From a virus (taxonomy: Duplodnaviria > Heunggongvirae > Uroviricota > Caudoviricetes): 9,821 nt of DNA. The notes beneath the pieces were generated by a model, which ran no database searches, was not told where the DNA came from, and saw nothing but the letters and a program-made list of their open reading frames with translations. This document shows positions 1 to 7,201 of this stretch, piece by piece; within the stretch, counting starts at the first letter, position 1, and the number at the start of each line of letters is the position of its first letter. The position numbers and the translations under genes are program-made. The DNA is taken from the IMG/VR virus record IMGVR_UViG_2703718828_000005; one strand, 5' to 3'.

Positions 1-1053
1 TTACGGGGTAATGCCAACCGCTGCCGCCACTTTGTCGCCACTTGGCAGCGTTGCCAGAGGATTGAAACGGAGCGCCGTTTCCAGATGATCTGGTGCCAGA
101 TGTGCGTAACGCATAGTCATTTTTATATCGTGGTGTCCGAGAATTTTTTGTAAGGCCAGAATGTTTCCACCCGACATCATGAAGTGCGCCGCAAACGTAT
201 GGCGCAGAACGTGTGTGAGTTGACCGCGAGGGAGCACGATAGACGTTTTTTCCATCACGGATAAAAATTGAAAATAGCAGTCTGTGAAGAAATTGAACCC
301 ATCAAGCGCCATGATCTCTTCGTAAAGCTCTTTACTGATAGGGATACTTCTGTTTTTCTTCCCCTTCGTTCTTACAAAGGTAATTCGGTATTTGGTCACC
401 TGTGAACGAGTAAGATTTACGGCTTCTCGCCAGCGTGCGCCTGTGCTTAAGCATATCTTAACTACCAGTGCTAGAATTGGGTCCTGACGTTTGCAATCAG
501 CCAGTAATTCAACAATCTGCTCATGGGTAAGCCATGCCATCTCTTTTTCTGCGATGGTGAATTTTCGCATGTTCTCCAGTGGGTTCGGATACGACCATTC
601 GCCCAGACGGGATAGTTCGCTAAAAACACTACTTAGATAGCTTTGCTCCAGGTTAATGGTGACCGGGCTTGCTCCTTTCTTCCATTTCTCGCTGAAGTAG
701 ATCTCGCCTGTCAGGCGTTTATCTCGATAGTGGGCAAACATTTTAGAGGTGAGATCGGTTGCAAGAGGATTGCCCAGAGCGTCAACCATCAGCAGCAATT
801 TGTCATAGACATGCTGCCCAGCAGTCAGAGATTTACCATGTAGTTTGAACCATAGCTCAACCACGTCTTTCAGGGTTCGACGATCCACTGATTCGCCCAG
901 CCATGGCTTTGATTCGGTTTCTTCCATAGTGTGACGCTCAAAAGCCAGAGCTTCGCCTTTGGTGGCGAATTGTTTACGCACACGACGCCCACTTCGTCCG
1001 GCGGGGTAACATTCGCAAAGCCATTTCCCTGTGGTGAGTTTTCGTACTGCCAT
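1..1053 (-). CDS. int: Phage integrase, tyrosine recombinase family (P2/186-like)
   Basis: 350-aa product. C-terminal catalytic region reads LRHTFAAHF...GHHDIKMTMRYAHL (R, H-x-x-R, Y signature). Start chosen at ATG 1051-1053 (MAVRKLTTGKW...), preceded by GGAGGG 8 nt upstream. The ORF-track start at 1209 would run through the promoter and RBS. Confidence 0.9.
   Translation of the reverse strand: MAVRKLTTGKWLCECYPAGRSGRRVRKQFATKGEALAFERHTMEETESKPWLGESVDRRTLKDVVELWFKLHGKSLTAGQHVYDKLLLMVDALGNPLATDLTSKMFAHYRDKRLTGEIYFSEKWKKGASPVTINLEQSYLSSVFSELSRLGEWSYPNPLENMRKFTIAEKEMAWLTHEQIVELLADCKRQDPILALVVKICLSTGARWREAVNLTRSQVTKYRITFVRTKGKKNRSIPISKELYEEIMALDGFNFFTDCYFQFLSVMEKTSIVLPRGQLTHVLRHTFAAHFMMSGGNILALQKILGHHDIKMTMRYAHLAPDHLETALRFNPLATLPSGDKVAAAVGITP
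19..40. repeat. attL: Putative attL core (cGCTGCCGCCACTTTGTCGCCA)
   Basis: Matches 6967-6988 at 21 of 22 positions (single C/T difference). Lies at the 3' end of int, where attL is expected for a P2-like prophage. Confidence 0.7.
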
Positions 1054-1077
1054 AAAAAATGCCCTCCAGTAGAGAGC

Positions 1078-1106
1078 ATTTTTACTGTATGTATAACCAG
1101 TGTCAA
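1078..1106 (-). promoter_or_regulatory. Candidate sigma-70 promoter for int (-35 TTGACA at 1106-1101, -10 TAAAAA or AAAAAT around 1084-1078)
   Basis: Minus strand reads TTGACA-ctggttatacatacag-TAAAAAT, then GGAGGG and the int ATG about 25 nt downstream. Perfect -35, 4/6 -10, 16-17 nt spacer. Confidence 0.5.
1083..1102. promoter_or_regulatory. Candidate LexA (SOS) box TACTGTATGTATAACCAGTG
   Basis: 16 of 20 matches to the consensus TACTGTATATATATACAGTA. CTGT-N8-CCAG half-sites as in the uvrB operator. Occupies the spacer of the int promoter and overlaps its -35. Confidence 0.5.
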
Positions 1107-1241
1107 TGTATGAAATCCTACGACCATACATCTCACTGAAGCCATAATGAAGTTGGCTATTCTTTTTGCTATGTGAGCATGTAACTTTTGCGGTTAACCT
1201 GCGGCTCATTTTTATTTTAGACGCAGATATAAAAGCAAAAG

Positions 1242-1433
1242 TTATCGTGAGTTTTTAGTACAGATTTTTTTGGATTTACTAATAGTTCCATCATTGCAAA
1301 CGAATTTGCCATCTGAGGTACAGTGAGAAACACCTCCCTTTTTCCCTGAGCAGGGATAATTTCTAGCATAGGTAGTTAGTGGGTTTAATAACAAAGAACA
1401 TGACAAAACCACAAAAAATACCTTACCAAGCAT
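1242..1433 (-). CDS. Small secreted cysteine-containing basic peptide (hypothetical; candidate moron)
   Basis: 63 aa. N-terminal signal peptide [23 protein letters not shown] with predicted cleavage after TYA. Mature ~40 aa carries 4 Cys and is Lys-rich. Strong RBS GGGAGG 5 nt upstream of the ATG. Region is markedly AT-rich. Sits 15 bp downstream of cI on the same strand. Confidence 0.6.
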
Positions 1434-1448
1434 AGTTTCCTCCCGGTA

Positions 1449-2018
1449 CTATTTAACATACTTGACTGTTAAACTTATAATTTTACCAATTATTTCAATG
1501 TCTTCTATCTTACATTCGAAGGCTCTGTTTCCACCCTCGACGAAGATTCTTCCACCGGGTAAACGAGTAATGTCACGGATCGTTACTTCGCCATCAATAC
1601 TTATTACCCATTTACCATCACGTATATCATCAAATTCTTTATCACAAATAAATTCAGAATTGTTATCTGTGATGACAAAAGGTTTTTTAAACGTAGAGGG
1701 TAAAAATCCCTTATCAAAAATATAAAAACCGTCTTCACGCAAGGCACCATCAGATAATACATATTTAGCAACTTCCATAGTATTTGTATTACCTGAAGTT
1801 TGCTTTGAACCATGTCCGGTTGTGAGCCAATTAAGCGAGGTGCCCGTTTCAAGGGCGCACTGGATTACCCATTCTGCTGGGAATGAGTCACGCATGTAGC
1901 GTGTGGCGAGTGTACTTTTAGAGATTCCTAAATGATCGCACAACGCCTGTCGAGTTTTGAATCCATAAGCTTCTACCATGCGCTCTATAGCGCCTCGTCC
2001 GCCTTTCTCCAAATTCAT
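1449..2018 (-). CDS. cI: Phage 186-type CI immunity repressor
   Basis: 189 aa from ATG 2016-2018 (GGAG 5 nt upstream; the ORF-track GTG at 2024 overlaps the SD). N-terminal HTH region (GISKSTLATRYMRDSFPAEWVIQCALETGTSLNWLTTG). Length is close to 186 CI. No S24 peptidase signature seen in the C-terminal domain. Divergent from apl and cII. Confidence 0.8.
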   Translation of the reverse strand: MNLEKGGRGAIERMVEAYGFKTRQALCDHLGISKSTLATRYMRDSFPAEWVIQCALETGTSLNWLTTGHGSKQTSGNTNTMEVAKYVLSDGALREDGFYIFDKGFLPSTFKKPFVITDNNSEFICDKEFDDIRDGKWVISIDGEVTIRDITRLPGGRIFVEGGNRAFECKIEDIEIIGKIISLTVKYVK

Positions 2019-2042
2019 GGTCACTCCAAGTGAACTTTTATC

Positions 2043-2071
2043 TTGACGATTTCATTGTGCGATCGTATGTT
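2043..2071 (+). promoter_or_regulatory. Candidate early lytic promoter (pR-like): -35 TTGACG 2043-2048, 17-nt spacer, -10 TATGTT 2066-2071
   Basis: Read directly from the cI-apl intergenic region 2019-2143. Flanked by a GTGAAC (2030-2035) / GTTCAC (2078-2083) inverted pair that could be operator half-sites. Confidence 0.4.
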
Positions 2072-2143
2072 TATGGTGTTCACAAAATACAAACGATCCG
2101 TATTCGTCCTGATTAATCATCATTAAACGAGGAATGTTGCATC

Positions 2144-2365
2144 ATGAGACCTAACATTTCAATCACTCTTACCACGCCTCATGTGACTATTGAGCGCTAT
2201 AGCGAGCTGACAGGGCTGTCCATCGATACCATCAATGACATGTTGGCTGACGGACGCCTTATCCGTCACCGTTTGCGCAAAGATAAAAAACGCGAAAAAG
2301 TGATGATCAACATAGCAGCCATGACCGTTGATGCGCTTTCAGAATGCAATCTAAACCTTAATTAG
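2144..2365 (+). CDS. apl: Apl/Cox-family excisionase and transcriptional regulator
   Basis: 73 aa, basic. First gene of the rightward operon, divergent from cI, as for P2 cox and 186 apl. RBS GAGGAA 9 nt upstream. Confidence 0.75.
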
Positions 2366-2397
2366 TTCGATTCTGAAATACATCAGAGGCATTGACC

Positions 2398-2907
2398 ATG
2401 TTTGATTACCAAGTTTCCAAACATCCACATTTTGATGAAGCCTGTCGTGCATTTGCACTGCGCCACAATCTGGTGCAACTGGCAGAACGTGCAGGCATGA
2501 ATGTGCAGATTCTGCGGAACAAGCTGAACCCAGCTCAGCCTCATCTATTAACCGCACCAGAAATCTGGCTGCTTACCGATCTGACTGAAGATTCAACGCT
2601 GGTAGATGGTTTTCTGGCACAGATTCATTGTCTGCCATGTGTACCGATTAATGAGGTGGCAAAAGAGAAACTGCCACATTACGTCATGAGTGCAACCGCA
2701 GAGATCGGGCGTGTTGCTGCAGGTGCGGTATCTGGCGATGTAAAAACCAGTGCAGGTCGTCGTGATGCTATCAGCAGCATTAACTCTGTAACACGACTGA
2801 TGGCGTTGGCTGCTGTTTCATTGCAGGCCCGTTTACAGGCTAACCCTGCGATGGCGAGTGCAGTTGATACCGTGACCGGACTCGGTGCTTCATTCGGTTT
2901 GCTGTGA
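2398..2907 (+). CDS. cII: Phage 186-type CII transcriptional activator (lysogeny establishment)
   Basis: 169 aa from ATG 2398 (AGAGG 8 nt upstream), the same length as 186 CII. Immediately follows apl as in phage 186. Confidence 0.8.
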
Positions 2908-2914
2908 GGTGCTT

Positions 2915-3211
2915 ATGCTGACGAAAGAACCATCATTTGCATCGCTGCTGGTAAAGCAAAGCCCGGCAATGCACTACGGTCACGGCTGGATCATGGGTGA
3001 GGATGGAAAACGCTGGCATCCATGTCATTCACAAGATGAATTGCTGTCTGAATTGACCACGAGGAAACGGAGAAAGTCAAAATGTATGCAGCGGAAAGTG
3101 AAGTGGTTTATCAGTTTTGTTACAGAGGGGAGAGTTATTCAGTACCTGAAGATGATTTGCTCTGTTGTTATCCGTCGTTGTCGGGCGATGGCAGTTACTT
3201 TTTCACGCTAA
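2915..3211 (+). CDS. Hypothetical early protein (3' extent uncertain)
   Basis: ATG 2915 with GAGG 5 nt upstream, 8 nt after the cII stop. The 98-aa frame overlaps the next ORF by 130 nt. The N-terminal ~55 aa look protein-like; the C-terminal part may be a non-coding overlap. Confidence 0.4.
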   Translation: MLTKEPSFASLLVKQSPAMHYGHGWIMGEDGKRWHPCHSQDELLSELTTRKRRKSKCMQRKVKWFISFVTEGRVIQYLKMICSVVIRRCRAMAVTFSR

Positions 3212-3306
3212 AGGATGGGACGTTTTTACGGGGAGAGCAGGTTAAAGAGATGGTACGAAAAAATGTATCTCCCCTTGAGCGTTACCGTAAGAACAAAGAA
3301 CGATAG
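3082..3306 (+). CDS. Hypothetical early protein
   Basis: 74 aa (MYAAESEVVYQFCYRGESYSVPEDD...), balanced acidic composition. GGAG upstream. First ATG after in-frame stops in the -1 frame relative to the 2915 ORF. Confidence 0.5.
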   Translation: MYAAESEVVYQFCYRGESYSVPEDDLLCCYPSLSGDGSYFFTLKDGTFLRGEQVKEMVRKNVSPLERYRKNKER

Positions 3307-3328
3307 GTGCGTTTGGGGGATATGAAGT

Positions 3329-3670
3329 ATGGCAATTAATGGCGCTGCGGCGACTGTTCCATTAAGCCCCGGAGAACGCCTGAATGGACTTAATCACATT
3401 GCGGAATTAAGGGCGAAAGTATTTGGCCTGAATATTGAGTCAGAGCTTGAGCGGTTTATTAAAGATATGCGTGATCCACGGGATATCAATAACGAACAAA
3501 ATAAACGGGCACTGGCTGCCATATTCTTTATGGCAAAAATTCCAGCTGAACGTCATAGCATCAGCATTAATGAGCTGACCACTGACGAAAAGCGGGAGTT
3601 GATTAAAGCAATGAATCATTTTCGTGCAGTGGTGAGCTTATTTCCCAGACGGCTAACCATGCCGAATTAA
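3329..3670 (+). CDS. Hypothetical early protein
   Basis: 113 aa. GGGGGA 8 nt upstream of the ATG. Sits in the position of the small conserved early genes of P2/186-like phages. Confidence 0.6.
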   Translation: MAINGAAATVPLSPGERLNGLNHIAELRAKVFGLNIESELERFIKDMRDPRDINNEQNKRALAAIFFMAKIPAERHSISINELTTDEKRELIKAMNHFRAVVSLFPRRLTMPN

Positions 3671-3737
3671 CCAACCAATGAAATTAATGGCGTAAACCCG
3701 CCGGGCATCCCTTTATCTAAATTCAGGAGAATTGATT

Positions 3738-3971
3738 ATGCGTAATATTGAAACCCTCACGACCAAAACCGGACCGGATGATGCAGGTCTTAATCTTTTA
3801 CTGACAGAGGCTCGTCTGGAAGAACGCCGGGCAAGGGCTGAAGCAATGGCTGCTCGCCTCGATAGCCTGGCGTGTCATATCACCTCCCGCCAGCTAAACC
3901 ACGTCGAAGCGGCAGAACTGCTGCGTGTGACTGCTGAAGCAATCCAGAACGAAGCGCAGGAGATCCACTGA
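3738..3971 (+). CDS. Hypothetical early protein, predicted helical/coiled-coil
   Basis: 77 aa from ATG 3738 (AGGAGA 7 nt upstream). Stop TGA overlaps the next gene's ATG by 1 nt. Confidence 0.6.
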   Translation: MRNIETLTTKTGPDDAGLNLLLTEARLEERRARAEAMAARLDSLACHITSRQLNHVEAAELLRVTAEAIQNEAQEIH

Positions 3972-4198
3972 TGGCTGATGCAATGGATCTCGTACAGCAG
4001 CGCGTTGAAGAAGAACGCCAACGCCATATCCGTGCTGCCCGTGCCAAAACGCCGGGCGTGTCCCGCGTGCTTTGCGTTGAGTGTGAAGCGCCAATTCCGC
4101 CAGCACGCCGCCGTGCCATTCCTGGAGTGCAGCTTTGCATTACCTGCCAGGAAATCGCAGAGCTGAAAGGCAAACATTACAACGGAGGTGCTGTATGA
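3971..4198 (+). CDS. TraR/DksA-family C4 zinc-finger protein
   Basis: 75 aa with CxxC-x17-CxxC (CVEC...CITC). Same position as the TraR-like gene upstream of A in P2-like phages. Confidence 0.8.
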   Translation: MADAMDLVQQRVEEERQRHIRAARAKTPGVSRVLCVECEAPIPPARRRAIPGVQLCITCQEIAELKGKHYNGGAV

Positions 4199-5052
4199 GC
4201 ACCATCCTGAAATGGGCGGGTAATAAAACCGCCATTATGTCCGAACTGAAAAAATACCTTCCTGCTGGCCCGCGACTGGTTGAACCTTTCGCGGGTTCTT
4301 GTGCTGTGATGATGGCGACGGATTACCCCAGCTATCTGGTTGCGGATATTAATCCTGATTTAATCAACCTCTATAAAAAGATTGCCGCTGATTGCGAAGC
4401 GTTTATATCTCGTGCCAAAGTTTTATTTGAGGAAGCAAACAGTGAGCTGGCTTATTACAACATAAGACAGGAGTTTAATTACTCAACTGAAATTACTGAT
4501 TTCATGAAGGCGATATATTTCCTGTATCTCAATCGTCACGGTTACCGTGGTTTATGTCGCTATAACAAGAGCGGGTATTTCAACATTCCCTACGGTAATT
4601 ATAAAAATCCGTATTTCCCTGAAAAAGAAATTCGCGCATTTGCAGAGAAAGCCCAGCGGGCAACGTTTATCTGCGCGAGCTTTGATGAAACGCTGGCGAT
4701 GCTGCAGGTGGGGGATGTGGTGTATTGCGATCCGCCGTATGACGGTACGTTTTCCGGCTATCACACTGATGGTTTCACTGAAGATGACCAGTATCACCTG
4801 GCATCCATTCTTGAACATCGGTCATCAGAAGGACATCCGGTCATTGTTTCTAACAATGACACATCCCTGATTCGTTCGCTGTATCGCAATTTTACTCACC
4901 ACTATATCAAGGCAAAACGCAGCATCGGCGTGTCAGCTGGCGAGGGTAAATCTGCAACAGAAATCATTGCTGTTTCCGGGCCGAGCTGCTGGTTGGGATT
5001 TGATCCTTCGCGTGGCGTGGATAGTTCTGCCGTGTACGGAGTGTGTGTATGA
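4195..5052 (+). CDS. dam: DNA adenine methyltransferase, Dam family (GATC-type N6-adenine MTase)
   Basis: 285 aa from ATG 4195 (GGAGGTG upstream). LKWAGNK N-terminal motif, [15 protein letters not shown] and the catalytic DPPY motif. Clearly similar along its length to E. coli Dam. Start overlaps the upstream stop (ATGA). Confidence 0.9.
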
Positions 5053-6368
5053 GTCATGACGATATGAACAATTGCAGCGGCTTTAACGAGGCCGCCGCAG
5101 CATTTTCATGGAACGGCTCGAAAAAGGCCATTAACCCTTATCTGGACCCGGCGGAAGTTGCGCCGGAGTCTGCACTTTCAAACCTGATCACTCTGTACGC
5201 TGCCGATAACGAGCAGGAACAACTGCGCCGCGAGGCACTGAGTGAGCAGGTCTGGGAGCGTTATTTCTTTAATGAATCCCGTGATCCTGTCCAGCGCGAA
5301 ATGGAGCAGGATAAGCTCATTAGCCGGGCAAAGCTGGCGCATGAGCAGCAGCGTTTTAATCCGGACATGGTCATTCTGGCGGACGTAAACGCCCAGCCTT
5401 CCCATATCAGCAAGCCGCTGATGCAACGTATTGAATACTTCAGCAGCCTGGGCAGGCCAAAGGCTTATTCCCGCTATTTGCGTGAGACGATTAAGCCATG
5501 TCTGGAGCGACTGGATTGTGTACGTGACAGTCAGCTATCTGTTTCTTTCCGTTTTATGGCAAGCCATCAAGGGCTGGAGGGTCTGCTGATCCTGCCTGAA
5601 ATGAGCCAGGATCAGGTGAAACGCCTGTCCACCCTGGTAGCAGCGCATATGAGCATGTGTCTTGAGGACGCTTGTGGTGATTTGTATGCCACCGATGACG
5701 TTAAGCCAGAAGAAATCCGCAAGACATGGGAAAAGGTGGCAGCGGAAACCCTGCGTCTGGATGTAATCCCGCCTGCGTTTGAGAAACTTCGTCGGAAAAG
5801 AAACCGCCGCAAACCAGTGCCCTATGAACTCATCCCGGGTTCGCTGGCGCGTATGTTGTGTGCCGACTGGTGGTATCGGAAATTATGGAAGATGCGTTGC
5901 GAATGGCGGGAAGAGCAGTTGCGTGCTGTCTGCCTGGTCAGCAAAAAAGCATCCCCCTATGTCAGCTATGAAGCCGTGATGCATAAACGTGAGCAGCGCC
6001 GTAAGTCGCTGGAGTTTTTTCGTTCTCATGAACTGGTGAACGAAGACGGCGACACGCTGGATATGGAAGATGTGGTAAACGCCAGCAGCAGCAACCCGGC
6101 GCATCGCCGCAATGAGATGATGGCCTGTGTTAAAGGTCTGGAGCTTATCGCGGAAATGCGCAGTGACTGTGCCGTTTTCTACACTATCACCTGTCCGTCG
6201 CGTTTCCATTCCACGCTCAATAACGGCAGACCAAACCCGACCTGGACAAACGCGACGGTAAGACAAAGTAGCGATTATCTGGTCGGCATGTTTGCTGCAT
6301 TTCGTAAGGCTATGCATAAAGCCGAGTTGCGCTGGTATGGCGTGCGGGTACCTGGTGGGGACGGATGA
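5049..6368 (+). pseudogene. A: Replication initiation endonuclease (P2 gpA family), truncated at about codon 435
   Basis: N-terminal region includes ITCPSRFH and ends ...ELRWYGVRV, then runs into an unrelated PGGDG-stop tail. The HUH histidines and catalytic tyrosines that normally follow are absent. Start ATG 5049 overlaps the dam stop. Confidence 0.8.
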
Positions 6369-6657
6369 AAACGTGCTGGTACTTAATCGCACTTATGCCA
6401 ACCGGAGCAACGCCGAACGAGCGGCAAAAATGCAGTGGGAACGCCTGCAACGCGGTGTTGCGTCATTCTCGCTACAACTGGCGGAAGGGCGGGCAGATCT
6501 TTACACGGAAATGCCTGTAAAAGTCAGTGGTTTTAAACAGCCGATAGATGATGCGGAATGGACCATTACCACCCTGACGCATACTGTCAGCCCGGATAAC
6601 GGTTTTACGACCAGTCTGGAGCTTGAAGTGAGGATTGATGATTTCGAAATGGAATGA
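6351..6657 (+). pseudogene. D: C-terminal fragment of tail gene D (P2 gpD family)
   Basis: Frame +1 relative to A encodes ...LVLNRTYANRSNAERAAKMQWERLQRG...SGFKQPIDDAEWTITTLTHTVSPDNGFTTSLELEVRIDDFEME, recognised as a gpD C-terminus. No own RBS or 5' portion. Lies directly upstream of ogr as in P2. Confidence 0.7.
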
Positions 6658-6747
6658 TTCTTCGCAATGGAGAACTTTTAAGTTTGCAAAATGGAATAAT
6701 GCGGTATCATTGTTGTGAATTTAGCAAAAATGGGGAGAACTCGAAAA

Positions 6748-6966
6748 ATGATGATTTGCCCACTGTGTGGAAGTGCCGCCCATACTCGCAGCAGTTTTCA
6801 GGTATCTTCATTGACCAAAGAGCGTTACAACCAGTGCCAGAACATTAACTGCAGCCATACTTTTGTTACCCATGAAACTTTTGTTCGTTCGATTGCAACG
6901 CCAAAAGAGTCAAATCCGGTTCAGCCGCATCCAATGAAATCAGGGCAGGTGGCGCTCTCTCTTTGA
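6748..6966 (+). CDS. ogr: Ogr/B-family zinc-finger late-gene transcriptional activator
   Basis: 72 aa from ATG 6748 (MMICPLCGSAAHTRS...KERYNQCQNINCSHTF...). CxxC...CxxxxC finger and strong resemblance to P2 Ogr and 186 B. Last phage gene before attR. Confidence 0.85.
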   Translation: MMICPLCGSAAHTRSSFQVSSLTKERYNQCQNINCSHTFVTHETFVRSIATPKESNPVQPHPMKSGQVALSL

Positions 6967-7043: not shown

Positions 7044-7089
7044 AACAAAAAACCCATCAACCTTGAACCGAAATGGCGGGGTTGATGGG
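7044..7089 (-). terminator. Candidate intrinsic terminator downstream of ybjL
   Basis: Perfect 10-bp inverted repeat CCCATCAACC (7053-7062) / GGTTGATGGG (7080-7089) followed on the minus strand by TTTTTTGTT (7052-7044). The loop is long (17 nt, ~11 with G-U pairs). Confidence 0.35.
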
Positions 7090-7201
7090 CTCCACAAAAT
7101 GGGGACATCAAAGAAAAGCAGTGGCACTAATTAAGACTGATGCCCTGCGGAAAAGTTCTGCGGTTGTGCAAAAAAATTTCATTTTCAGGGCAACTTCAGT
7201 T

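What the first reader, a model, noticed from the sequence alone, without database searches (positions are those of the whole stretch)
1242..1448. AT-rich cargo gene for a small secreted 4-Cys basic peptide inserted between cI and int
Between the repressor and the integrase lies a 63-aa ORF with a strong SD, a clear Sec-type signal peptide and a ~40-aa Lys-rich mature part with four cysteines. It is 15 bp downstream of cI on the same strand, so it would be co-expressed from the lysogenic promoter in the prophage state. The local composition is much more AT-rich than the flanking phage genes, typical of a horizontally acquired moron. I do not recognise it as a standard P2/186 gene. A small disulfide-bonded cationic peptide exported from a lysogen could be a lysogenic-conversion factor (toxin, bacteriocin-like peptide, envelope modifier or surface-exclusion factor).
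Basis: partly seen in the sequence, partly recalled or inferred. Interest (0 to 1): 0.65.

Follow-up and report, generated by a model that had tools for sequence, protein, structure and literature searches.

The report
Prophage copy of exported YdcA mini-protein
The small ORF between the phage repressor and integrase is a real, strongly conserved gene for an exported 40-residue, four-cysteine protein of the already catalogued but functionally uncharacterised YdcA family, carried in the lysogeny operon of a decayed 186-like prophage of E. coli.

Summary
Window 1242-1433 (minus strand) encodes a 63-aa precursor. A GGAGG Shine-Dalgarno sits 5 nt upstream, and the start lies 15 bp after the cI stop. 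A Sec-type signal peptide (residues 1-23) precedes a 40-aa, net +7 mature part with four cysteines.

It is not an orphan. RefSeq calls it "YdcA family protein" (NCBIfam NF007463, above the curated cut-off; PHROG 6000; Pfam PF27300). The mature core is under very strong purifying selection (dN/dS about 0.02).

The gene travels with this cI type in about 630 of 5426 complete E. coli genomes. The same cI-YdcA-int arrangement recurs in Klebsiella, Yersinia, Enterobacter and Haemophilus (unannotated in phage HP2). Phage 186 itself has nothing in that slot. Sibling prophages carry defence genes there (PD-Lambda-1, a KAP NTPase).

The only solved relative is Legionella Dis2. It is a periplasmic, outer-membrane-proximal, disulfide-stapled accessory subunit of the Dot/Icm secretion system, and each of its two lobes resembles YdcA.

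The bacteriocin/toxin and lipoprotein readings are not supported. An envelope-level lysogenic-conversion role is plausible but untested, and broad phage exclusion is unlikely because E. coli B carries the intact gene. This is a known family of unknown function, of moderate interest.

The parts
1242..1433 (-). CDS, 63-aa precursor of a YdcA-family protein (stop codon at 1242-1244)
   Evidence: ORF list. NCBIfam NF007463 E 5e-34, above the cut-off. PHROG 6000 E 2e-34. RefSeq annotation 'YdcA family protein' WP_000900883.1 on identical DNA. dN/dS about 0.02.
1365..1433 (-). Signal peptide, codons 1-23 ([23 protein letters not shown]), with predicted SPase I cleavage after A23
   Evidence: Hydrophobic core and a T-Y-A motif. 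Ala at -1 is conserved at this column in 27/27 homologues, while the rest of the leader diverges freely. No lipobox pattern. Cleavage was not tested experimentally.
1245..1364 (-). Mature domain, 40 aa, net charge about +7, with four invariant Cys (C28, C38, C46, C58) and core motif [12 protein letters not shown]-x4[17 protein letters not shown]
   Evidence: Alignments A1 and A3. AF2 pLDDT is 87-88 in the core. The only PDB relative is Dis2.
1434..1448 (-). 15-nt cI-ydcA spacer carrying the Shine-Dalgarno GGAGG (1439-1443), 5 nt before the ATG
   Evidence: Read directly from the sequence.
1449..2018 (-). cI repressor of the 186 type (32% identical to 186 CI), the upstream cistron of the same operon. 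Its C-terminal half shares the low GC of the ORF.
   Evidence: Pfam Phage_CI_repr and Phage_CI_C. BLASTP against 186 CI. GC values. RefSeq CDS.
1054..1241 (-). 188-bp AT-rich spacer between the ORF and int. It has no minus-strand terminator-like site. A promoter-like site (TTGACA-17-AAAAAT) lies at 1106-1078 on the minus strand.
   Evidence: Promoter/terminator scan. The int-proximal roughly 90 bp are conserved in a relative that carries a KAP NTPase gene in between.
1..1053 (-). P2/186-type tyrosine integrase, the downstream cistron
   Evidence: Pfam Int_N and Phage_integrase. RefSeq CDS. 96% nt identity to the integrases of Klebsiella phage KP12, 4LV2017 and E. coli phage 813R9.
2019..2143 (.). 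cI-apl intergenic switch region, where the lysogenic (leftward) and lytic (rightward) promoters are expected by synteny with 186. A rightward promoter-like site lies at 2043-2071.
   Evidence: 186 annotation of pR/pL and scan. The sequences do not align with 186, so promoter placement is inferred, not shown.

Best explanation
**What it is (shown).** The ORF is the second cistron of the lysogeny operon (cI - ydcA-like - int) of a 186-like prophage remnant. The remnant sits between rcdA and rybB/ybjL in E. coli. The ORF encodes a YdcA-family mini-protein.

**How it most likely works (inferred).**
- It is transcribed with the repressor in the prophage state and exported by Sec.
- Signal peptidase I cleaves it after Ala23.
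- In the periplasm it is oxidised to a two-disulfide, strongly basic 40-residue domain.
- The domain has the same fold and motif as each lobe of Legionella Dis2. Dis2 sits just under the outer membrane and docks on the lipoproteins DotC, DotD and DotK.

I therefore read it as a non-enzymatic, periplasmic, outer-membrane-proximal binding module. It would change an envelope property of the lysogen by binding a highly conserved, probably anionic, envelope ligand or partner. That makes it a lysogenic-conversion factor rather than a toxin. What the changed property is remains undecided: tolerance to envelope or acid stress as suggested for chromosomal ydcA, or hindrance of incoming DNA or phage.
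For: **Identity**
- NF007463 above its curated cut-off; PHROG 6000; precomputed PF27300 'YdcA'.
- RefSeq name.
- Homology to K-12-type YdcA.

**Real and constrained**
- dN/dS about 0.02 in the core, while signal peptides diverge freely.

**Export**
- Conserved SPase I-type site in 27/27 homologues.
- The literature describes K-12 YdcA as a signal-sequence periplasmic protein (bioRxiv 10.1101/2024.02.12.579971).

**Operon membership**
- 15-nt spacer with an SD and no terminator-like site on that strand.
- In 186 the pL operon runs cI-int-orf69.
- In HP2 the homologous ORF's ATG overlaps the cI stop codon.

**Recurrence of the cI-YdcA-int slot**
- E. coli, Klebsiella, Yersinia, Enterobacter, Haemophilus and Buttiauxella.
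- Tight linkage to this cI in E. coli.

**Dis2 relation**
- Profile hit E 8e-5 for the whole protein and 0.089 for the mature part alone, still the top hit.
- Foldseek top hit: prob 0.96, TM 0.64, 38% identity, with the next hit at prob 0.13 or less.
- hhalign 69%, E 4.5e-5.
- A Dis2-like protein (96% identical to the PDB chain over the matched half of the query) carries PF27300.
- Dis2 location, disulfides and partners come from PMC8486379 and PMC12716638.

**Stress link for the chromosomal paralogue**
- PMC7642389.
Against: - No experiment here shows transcription, export, disulfides or any phenotype.
- Dis2 lacks the conserved lysines, so its partners cannot simply be transferred.
- Deletion of dis2 has only subtle effects (PMC12716638).
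- No conserved chromosomal neighbour points to a partner.
- PADLOC has no model for it.
- The promoter driving it is placed by synteny only.
Confidence: 0.6

Rival explanations
1. Dedicated superinfection exclusion or anti-phage factor. The periplasmic peptide would block genome ejection or receptor use by incoming phages, or entry of conjugative or transforming DNA.
For: - It sits in a slot that carries defence genes in siblings: PD-Lambda-1 (E 3e-120) and the KAP NTPase PDC-S20 (E 1e-171).
- The int-primase interval is a listed minor P2 defence hotspot (PMC13586616).
- In HP2 it is followed by an exported OB-fold protein that hits a 'Sie-like' PHROG.
- It is expressed with the repressor.
- It recurs as prophage cargo in several unrelated phage types.
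Against: - E. coli B, a BL21 derivative and HS carry an intact copy, yet B is the classical permissive host of T1-T7 (own knowledge).
- Extreme purifying selection on the mature part is not what an arms-race interface usually shows.
- A core-genome chromosomal paralogue exists.
- There is no PADLOC hit.
Confidence: 0.2
2. Host-fitness paralogue. The phage copy would do the same job as chromosomal YdcA (a periplasmic factor linked to acid or organic-acid tolerance) and simply raise its dose in lysogens.
For: - The domain is the same, 70% identical in the mature part to K-12-type YdcA.
- ydcA deletion sensitises E. coli W to 3-hydroxypropionate, and the authors cite acid induction via YdcI (PMC7642389).
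- The gene stays intact in a prophage remnant that has lost all structural genes.
Against: - The K-12 function itself is unknown, and that phenotype comes from a single report.
- It does not explain the repeated capture by prophages in hosts that already have a chromosomal copy.
Confidence: 0.2
3. Nucleic-acid-binding (or nuclease-targeting) module. The basic domain would bind DNA in the periplasm or outside the cell.
For: - Net charge is +7 with invariant lysines.
- The domain is fused N-terminally to two unrelated exported nuclease families: Endonuclease_NS in 4 and SNase in 1 of the 52 longer representatives.
- It occurs in phages of naturally competent genera: Haemophilus, Moraxella, Acinetobacter and Neisseria.
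Against: - The fusions are few and could equally reflect anchoring of the nuclease to the envelope.
- Dis2 binds proteins, not DNA.
- There is no recognisable DNA-binding fold.
Confidence: 0.12
4. Secreted bacteriocin-like peptide or toxin.
For: It is small, cationic, disulfide-rich and exported.
Against: - There is no immunity gene, dedicated exporter or double-glycine leader in the window.
- A Sec leader delivers only to the periplasm.
- A chromosomal paralogue is present across E. coli.
- The gene is carried harmlessly in about 12% of complete E. coli genomes.
Confidence: 0.03
5. Lipoprotein anchored through Cys12 (V-L-S-C resembles a lipobox).
For: Residues 9-12 (VLSC) fit the last four lipobox positions.
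Against: - The Cys is at position 12, too close to the N-terminus.
- K4 violates the uncharged stretch of the PROSITE-type pattern.
- That Cys is present in only 9 of 27 homologues, whereas the Ala-X cleavage site is universal.
Confidence: 0.04

Closest known systems
E. coli K-12 YdcA (b1419) and the YdcA family (Pfam PF27300, NCBIfam PRK10040 models NF007462-NF007464, PHROG 6000)
   Same: The architecture is the same: a Sec signal peptide plus a domain of about 35 aa with motif PCSG-x-KGG-[VI]-SHC...G-x-F-x-C-x-DG-x-x-S-x-SK-x-x-C and four Cys. The window protein scores above the curated cut-off of NF007463, and RefSeq names it a YdcA family protein.
   Different: The K-12 gene is chromosomal (hokB-ydcA-cybB) and 57 aa. 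This copy is prophage-borne, sits in the repressor operon, has an unrelated signal peptide and is more lysine-rich. Neither has a known function.
Legionella pneumophila Dis2 (Lpg0823), outer-membrane-cap subunit of the Dot/Icm type IVB secretion system (PDB 7MUC/7MUD)
   Same: It is the only solved relative. Each lobe carries C-[CS]-K-x-GG-[VI]-x-x-C...G-x-x-VCN-[DN]-G-x-x-S. It is Sec-exported, disulfide-stapled, periplasmic and next to the outer membrane. A Dis2-like protein is hit by PF27300.
   Different: Dis2 is a tandem of two lobes with five disulfides. It is not lysine-rich, is part of a secretion machine, and the literature describes it as Legionellales-specific. The window has a single lobe, four Cys and no T4SS genes. 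The similarity is marginal by sequence once the signal peptide is removed.
Cargo ('moron') and defence genes in variable slots of P2/186-like prophages (old, tin, fun; PD-Lambda-1; PDC-S20 KAP NTPase)
   Same: It occupies a variable slot between int and the early genes. Sibling prophages at the same att site fill that slot with known or candidate defence genes, and it is expressed in the lysogen.
   Different: Those are cytoplasmic enzymes or NTPases, whereas this is a 40-aa periplasmic peptide with no PADLOC model. Unlike typical hotspot cargo, it is almost invariably linked to one cI type.
Envelope-acting superinfection-exclusion proteins of temperate phages (for example the outer-membrane lipoproteins Cor of phi80/N15 and Llp of T5; named from my own knowledge)
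   Same: They are small, exported proteins that act in the cell envelope and are made by the resident phage.
   Different: There is no sequence or fold relation and no lipobox. No target or phenotype is known.

Membership tests
YdcA family (NCBIfam NF007463 / Pfam PF27300 / PHROG 6000) | Whole-protein HMM score above the curated cut-off | tested here: met
   NF007463: 115.8 bits against a cut-off of 93, E 5.3e-34. PHROG 6000 E 1.9e-34. All close homologues carry a precomputed PF27300 'YdcA' hit. The local Pfam copy lacks this model, so that search returned no hit.
YdcA family (NCBIfam NF007463 / Pfam PF27300 / PHROG 6000) | Conserved four-Cys core motif PCSGxKGG..C..F.C.DG..S.SK..C | tested here: met
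   Invariant or near-invariant columns P27, C28, S29, K32, G33, G34, C38, F44, C46, D48, G49, S52, S54, K55 and C58 in 27 sequences, and in 18 mature domains that include K-12 YdcA and HP2.
YdcA family (NCBIfam NF007463 / Pfam PF27300 / PHROG 6000) | N-terminal Sec signal peptide giving a periplasmic protein | tested here: inconclusive
   Heuristic features and a conserved A-X cleavage column in 27/27 sequences. The literature states that K-12 YdcA has a signal sequence. No dedicated predictor or experiment was available.
Dis2 (Lpg0823)-type T4SS outer-membrane-cap subunits | Fold and motif of the individual lobe | tested here: inconclusive
Dis2 (Lpg0823)-type T4SS outer-membrane-cap subunits | Two tandem lobes pinned by five disulfides | tested here: not met
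   The window protein has a single domain and four Cys in the mature part. Dis2 is described in PMC8486379.
Dis2 (Lpg0823)-type T4SS outer-membrane-cap subunits | Encoded in a genome with, and assembled into, a Dot/Icm type IVB secretion system | tested here: not met
   There are no T4SS genes in the window or in the 25 kb around the identical locus.
Bacterial lipoproteins | Lipobox ([LVI][ASTVI][GAS]C) after an uncharged stretch, with the Cys at about position 15-35 | tested here: not met
   A PROSITE-type pattern does not match. Cys12 is too early and is present in only 9/27 homologues.
Phage morons / lysogenic-conversion genes | Extra gene absent from the reference phage at that position | tested here: met
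   In phage 186, cI (22433-23011) abuts int (21423-22433) with nothing between them. Siblings carry different cargo in the slot.
Phage morons / lysogenic-conversion genes | Own promoter and terminator, and deviant base composition | tested here: inconclusive
   No promoter- or terminator-like site of its own on the minus strand; it appears embedded in the cI operon. GC is low (35%), but that is shared with half of cI and with the downstream spacer.
Phage morons / lysogenic-conversion genes | Expressed from the prophage and changes the host phenotype | not testable with these tools
   Needs RNA or protein detection and phenotyping.
Known anti-phage defence systems (PADLOC-DB 2.0) | Match to a defence-protein model | tested here: not met
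   No family at E <= 0.01. Neighbouring cargo in siblings does match (PD-Lambda-1, PDC-S20).
Peptide bacteriocins / microcins | Dedicated leader (double-glycine type) with a cognate exporter and immunity gene nearby | tested here: not met
   The leader is Sec-type. All other ORFs in the window are phage regulatory or replication genes or host genes.

The most novel reading that the evidence does not exclude
The YdcA domain would be a periplasmic, outer-membrane-proximal binding module that temperate phages of several families express together with their repressor. It would hinder entry of foreign DNA across the periplasm: phage genome ejection, conjugative transfer or natural transformation. 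It would act by binding a universally conserved envelope component or the DNA itself. That would make it a new, non-enzymatic class of envelope-level exclusion factor. It would also explain why the same domain became a subunit of the Legionella type IVB secretion machine and an N-terminal module of exported nucleases.
Probability: 0.12. Interest if true: 0.75.

Novelty: already known. Interest (0 to 1): 0.35.

Why it matters
This exact protein is already in RefSeq and belongs to a named family, so the gene itself is not a discovery. What remains open is its function.

- It is a 40-residue exported domain that is almost invariant from Enterobacterales to Haemophilus and Moraxella.
- It is present in the E. 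coli core genome, and prophages of at least four architectures have captured it repeatedly.
- In these prophages it is co-expressed with the repressor.

Two modest points emerged that I did not find stated in the papers I read:

- The cI-YdcA-int arrangement is a recurrent, stably linked feature of a large clade of 186/HP1-like prophages, and the gene is unannotated in the reference phage HP2.
- The 'Legionella-specific' T4SS subunit Dis2 looks like a tandem duplication of the YdcA domain. That gives YdcA its first structural and localisation lead, and gives Dis2 relatives outside Legionellales.

If the protein modifies the envelope of lysogens, it would be a very widespread and easily testable lysogenic-conversion factor. 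About 12% of complete E. coli genomes carry it, including the laboratory strains B and BL21.

Tried and rejected
- **Local Pfam-A scan of the ORF.** It gave only a meaningless sub-threshold hit, because the installed copy predates PF27300.
- **PADLOC.** No hit.
- **Lipoprotein reading.** Rejected on pattern and on non-conservation of Cys12.
- **Bacteriocin or toxin reading.** Rejected on context.
- **Non-coding alternatives in 1242-1448.**
  - No Rfam family and no tRNA.
  - There is no + strand ORF of 40 aa or more in the region.
  - The overlapping 50-aa minus-strand ORF at 1217-1369 is in another frame, and I take it to be spurious.
- **Search for a conserved chromosomal neighbour across 69 loci that lack 186/HP1-type cI or int neighbours.**
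  - It gave only genus-level synteny.
  - Apart from that, it gave prophage markers (antirepressor, Mu Gam), and no functional partner.
- **Aligning the cI-apl switch region with phage 186 to place pL.** The sequences are too diverged.
- **Literature on 'YdcA'.**
  - Most hits use the same name for other things, such as the B. subtilis rhomboid protease paralogue YdcA.
  - I took the ydcA names in the Neisseria gonococcal island and on plasmids to be position-based, but did not check.
  - Only three papers concern the E. coli gene, and none gives a function.
- **The UniRef label 'Conjugal transfer protein' for this cluster.** It could not be traced to any evidence and was not relied upon.

Full report
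**Where the window comes from.** The window is E. coli chromosome. Identical DNA is found in many complete genomes, for example NZ_CP134370, where the region lies between rcdA and ybjL. Positions 1-6966 are a decayed P2/186-like prophage. Its gene order is int (1-1053, -), the ORF in question (1242-1433, -), cI (1449-2018, -), apl-like, cII, fil, DUF5347, DUF2732, a TraR/DksA zinc finger and dam. A replication gene A truncated at its 3' end is then fused to the 3' end of tail gene D, followed by ogr. All structural genes are gone. To the right lie RybB sRNA (7044-7122, -), ybjL, ybjM and grxA.

**Observation check: ORF, spacer and signal peptide.** The ORF exists exactly as described, on the minus strand. 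It has an ATG at 1433-1431, 63 codons and a stop at 1242-1244.
- The cI stop (TAG, 1449-1451) is followed by a 15-nt spacer, TACCGGGAGGAAACT, with GGAGG 5 nt from the ATG.
- The N-terminus ([23 protein letters not shown]) has the three regions of a Sec signal peptide.
- In an alignment of 27 homologues the leaders are almost unrelated in sequence. All are hydrophobic and all end in Ala at the same column, with S/A/T/V at -3 in 24 of 27.
- The mature part (R24-R63) is 40 aa with 7 Lys, 2 Arg, 2 Asp and four Cys.

**Observation check: composition.** The low GC is real but not specific to the ORF. The values are ORF 35.4%, downstream spacer 36.7% and C-terminal half of cI 34%. By contrast int is 48% and the prophage as a whole 47%.

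**It is a real gene of a known family.** NCBIfam NF007463 (PRK10040.1-2) matches at E 5e-34, above its curated cut-off, and PHROG 6000 at E 2e-34. RefSeq annotates the identical sequence as 'YdcA family protein' WP_000900883.1. The large protein collection assigns Pfam PF27300 'YdcA' to its homologues. The installed Pfam copy is older, which is why my own Pfam scan was empty. The chromosomal ydcA of K-12-type strains (57 aa, between hokB and cybB) is the same domain.

Selection is strong.
- Over the 32-codon core, the window and the E. coli B copy differ at 8 synonymous and 0 nonsynonymous sites.
- Against a 69%-identical E. coli variant, synonymous sites are saturated and there are only 2 amino-acid changes.
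- Where it can be computed, dN/dS is 0.015-0.025.

An exhaustive profile search finds 446 clusters (50% identity level) at E <= 1e-3. A species-level scan places the family in Gamma-, Beta- and Alphaproteobacteria.

**Context.** In phage 186, cI abuts int and both belong to the pL lysogenic operon, which ends at a terminator beyond orf69. In the window the ORF is wedged between them, with no terminator-like site on that strand. Co-transcription with cI is therefore the natural reading, although the promoter itself could not be aligned with 186 (the CI proteins are 32% identical).

The arrangement is not a one-off.
- cI of this type occurs in 648 of 5426 complete E. coli genomes, and the ORF at >= 90% nucleotide identity in 632. 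I did not intersect the two sets.
- The carriers include an E. coli B derivative, a BL21 derivative and HS. One strain has an IS5-family insertion in the ORF.
- More divergent cI-YdcA-int modules, each with its own signal peptide, occur in other E. coli, Klebsiella, Yersinia and Enterobacter.
- In Haemophilus phage HP2 the 60-aa ORF is unannotated, and its ATG overlaps the cI stop codon.
- Of 80 species-representative loci, 10 have a 186/HP1-type cI immediately upstream.
- Five others sit next to a P22-type antirepressor, and the Neisseria flavescens locus sits next to Mu gam.
- In Moraxella phages the gene lies between head and tail genes.

So the family is partly chromosomal and partly recurrent prophage cargo.

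**The slot.** Phages with a 96%-identical integrase at the same att site fill the cI-int interval differently.
- E. coli phage vB_EcoM-813R9 carries PD-Lambda-1 (PADLOC E 3e-120).
- Klebsiella phage 4LV2017 carries a 349-aa unknown protein.
- Several E. coli and Klebsiella prophages carry YdcA followed by a KAP NTPase that matches PADLOC candidate PDC-S20 (E 1e-171).
- A 2026 survey lists the integrase-primase interval as a minor defence hotspot of P2-like phages (PMC13586616).
- In HP2 the next gene encodes an exported OB-fold protein that hits a 'Sie-like' PHROG.

This is guilt by association for a defence or exclusion role, no more than that.

**Structural lead.** A profile of the family hits one PDB sequence, the chain deposited as 'neurogenic locus notch protein homolog' in 7MUC/7MUD. 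That chain is Dis2 (Lpg0823) of the Legionella Dot/Icm type IVB secretion system (PMC8486379).
- With the signal peptide removed from the profile, Dis2 is still the top hit, but only at E 0.089.
- AlphaFold models (pLDDT 77 for the precursor, 80 for the mature part, 87-90 in the core) have Dis2 as the sole credible Foldseek match. The figures are prob 0.96, query-normalised TM 0.64 and 38% identity; the next hit has prob 0.13 or less.
- hhalign against two Dis2-like sequences gives 69% probability. One of them carries a precomputed PF27300 hit.

Dis2 consists of two similar lobes pinned by five disulfides. It lies near the outer membrane, contacts the lipoproteins DotK, DotC and DotD, and is dispensable for assembly. 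The published papers call it Legionella-specific, with no structural relatives. I read Dis2 as a tandem YdcA domain. The similarity is real but marginal, and the YdcA-specific lysines are absent from Dis2.

**Other leads.** Among the 52 longer family representatives, four carry a C-terminal Endonuclease_NS domain and one an SNase domain. Others are tandem repeats of the domain. Fusion to two unrelated exported nuclease families suggests either nucleic-acid binding or envelope anchoring. For chromosomal ydcA the literature offers only three things: a signal sequence and unknown function, sensitivity of a deletion mutant to 3-hydroxypropionate with cited acid induction via YdcI, and induction in a persister time course.

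**Mechanism.**
- Shown: a conserved, constrained coding sequence of the YdcA family, in the repressor-integrase interval.
- Inferred with good support: expression from the lysogenic operon, Sec export, cleavage after A23, and a periplasmic disulfide-bonded state.
- Inferred with weak support: a binding role under the outer membrane, by analogy with Dis2, and a conserved anionic ligand, from the charge and extreme conservation.
- Undecided: the phenotype.

Broad phage exclusion is unlikely, because E. coli B and BL21 carry the intact gene and are classical permissive hosts (host range is my own knowledge). A narrow exclusion, a stress-tolerance role or DNA binding all remain possible. The toxin/bacteriocin and lipoprotein readings are disfavoured.

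**Verdict.** The gene is an already catalogued family member rather than something unrecognised. Its linkage to cI and its recurrence show a long-standing component of a phage lineage rather than a recent insertion. The function is unknown. Interest is moderate to low (0.35). The object is known, but the family is an unusually conserved, widespread and experimentally tractable unknown, and the Dis2 link and the unannotated HP2 gene are small additions.

Noticed in passing
window 7044-7122 (-): RybB sRNA gene (Rfam RF00110, 105 bits) lies 78 bp beyond the end of ogr, at the right edge of the prophage remnant. The element therefore appears to be integrated beside, or into the 3' end of, rybB. 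The att repeats were not mapped, because the window starts at the int stop codon.
   Followed up: partly
window 5043-6657: The replication endonuclease gene A is truncated and fused to the 3' part of tail gene D. RefSeq marks both as incomplete. The whole morphogenesis region of the prophage has been deleted, yet cI, the YdcA-like gene, int, cII, fil, dam and ogr remain intact ORFs.
   Followed up: partly
   Followed up: yes
L001 3112-3876 (HP2 orf1(S)): The gene after the HP2 YdcA ORF encodes a protein with its own signal peptide and a tRNA_anti-like OB fold (E 3e-13). It also hits PHROG 8545, 'superinfection exclusion Sie-like' (E 9e-9).
   Followed up: partly
L007 1791-3467 (phage vB_EcoM-813R9); L008 4198-5529; L014 1142-2473: The cI-int slot of sibling prophages holds PD-Lambda-1 (annotated there as 'chromosome segregation ATPase') or a KAP NTPase that matches PADLOC candidate PDC-S20. 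The KAP gene starts 12-14 bp after the YdcA gene.
   Followed up: partly
P0128, P0151, P0197, P0206 (representative library): The YdcA domain occurs as an N-terminal module of exported nucleases of two unrelated families (SNase, Endonuclease_NS). It also occurs as tandem repeats of two or three copies (P0081-P0085), and once fused to a VasL fragment (P0114).
   Followed up: partly
P0079, P0080; PDB 7MUC chain AN: The papers I read describe Dis2 of the Legionella Dot/Icm system as species-specific and without structural relatives. Its two lobes nevertheless carry the YdcA motif, and a Dis2-like protein has a precomputed PF27300 hit.
   Followed up: yes
window 1453-1481 (+): A near-consensus sigma-70 promoter-like site (TTAACA-17 nt-TATAAT, 11 of 12) sits on the plus strand at the cI/ORF junction, pointing antisense into cI. 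It may be chance in AT-rich DNA, since the region had no more sites than shuffled controls.
   Followed up: no
window 1449-1760: The C-terminal half of cI is as AT-rich (34% GC) as the YdcA-like gene, while its N-terminal DNA-binding part is 46% GC. This suggests that the cI C-terminal domain, the ORF and the spacer share a compositional history.
   Followed up: no
window 1245-1433 versus L013 2504-2692 (E. coli B): Synonymous divergence between the window and the E. coli B copy is higher in the mature core (8 of 20.7 sites) than in the signal-peptide codons (2 of 17). This could be small-number noise or a recombination mosaic inside the gene.
   Followed up: no
L015 2501-3900 (E. coli strain a7): An IS5-family element (ISKpn26) is inserted in the 5' part of the YdcA-like gene. 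It was the only disrupted copy among the genomes sampled.
   Followed up: partly
window 1188-1204 (+): A terminator-like hairpin followed by a T-run sits on the plus strand in the spacer between the ORF and int. It is oriented against the operon, and no plus-strand gene ends there.
   Followed up: no
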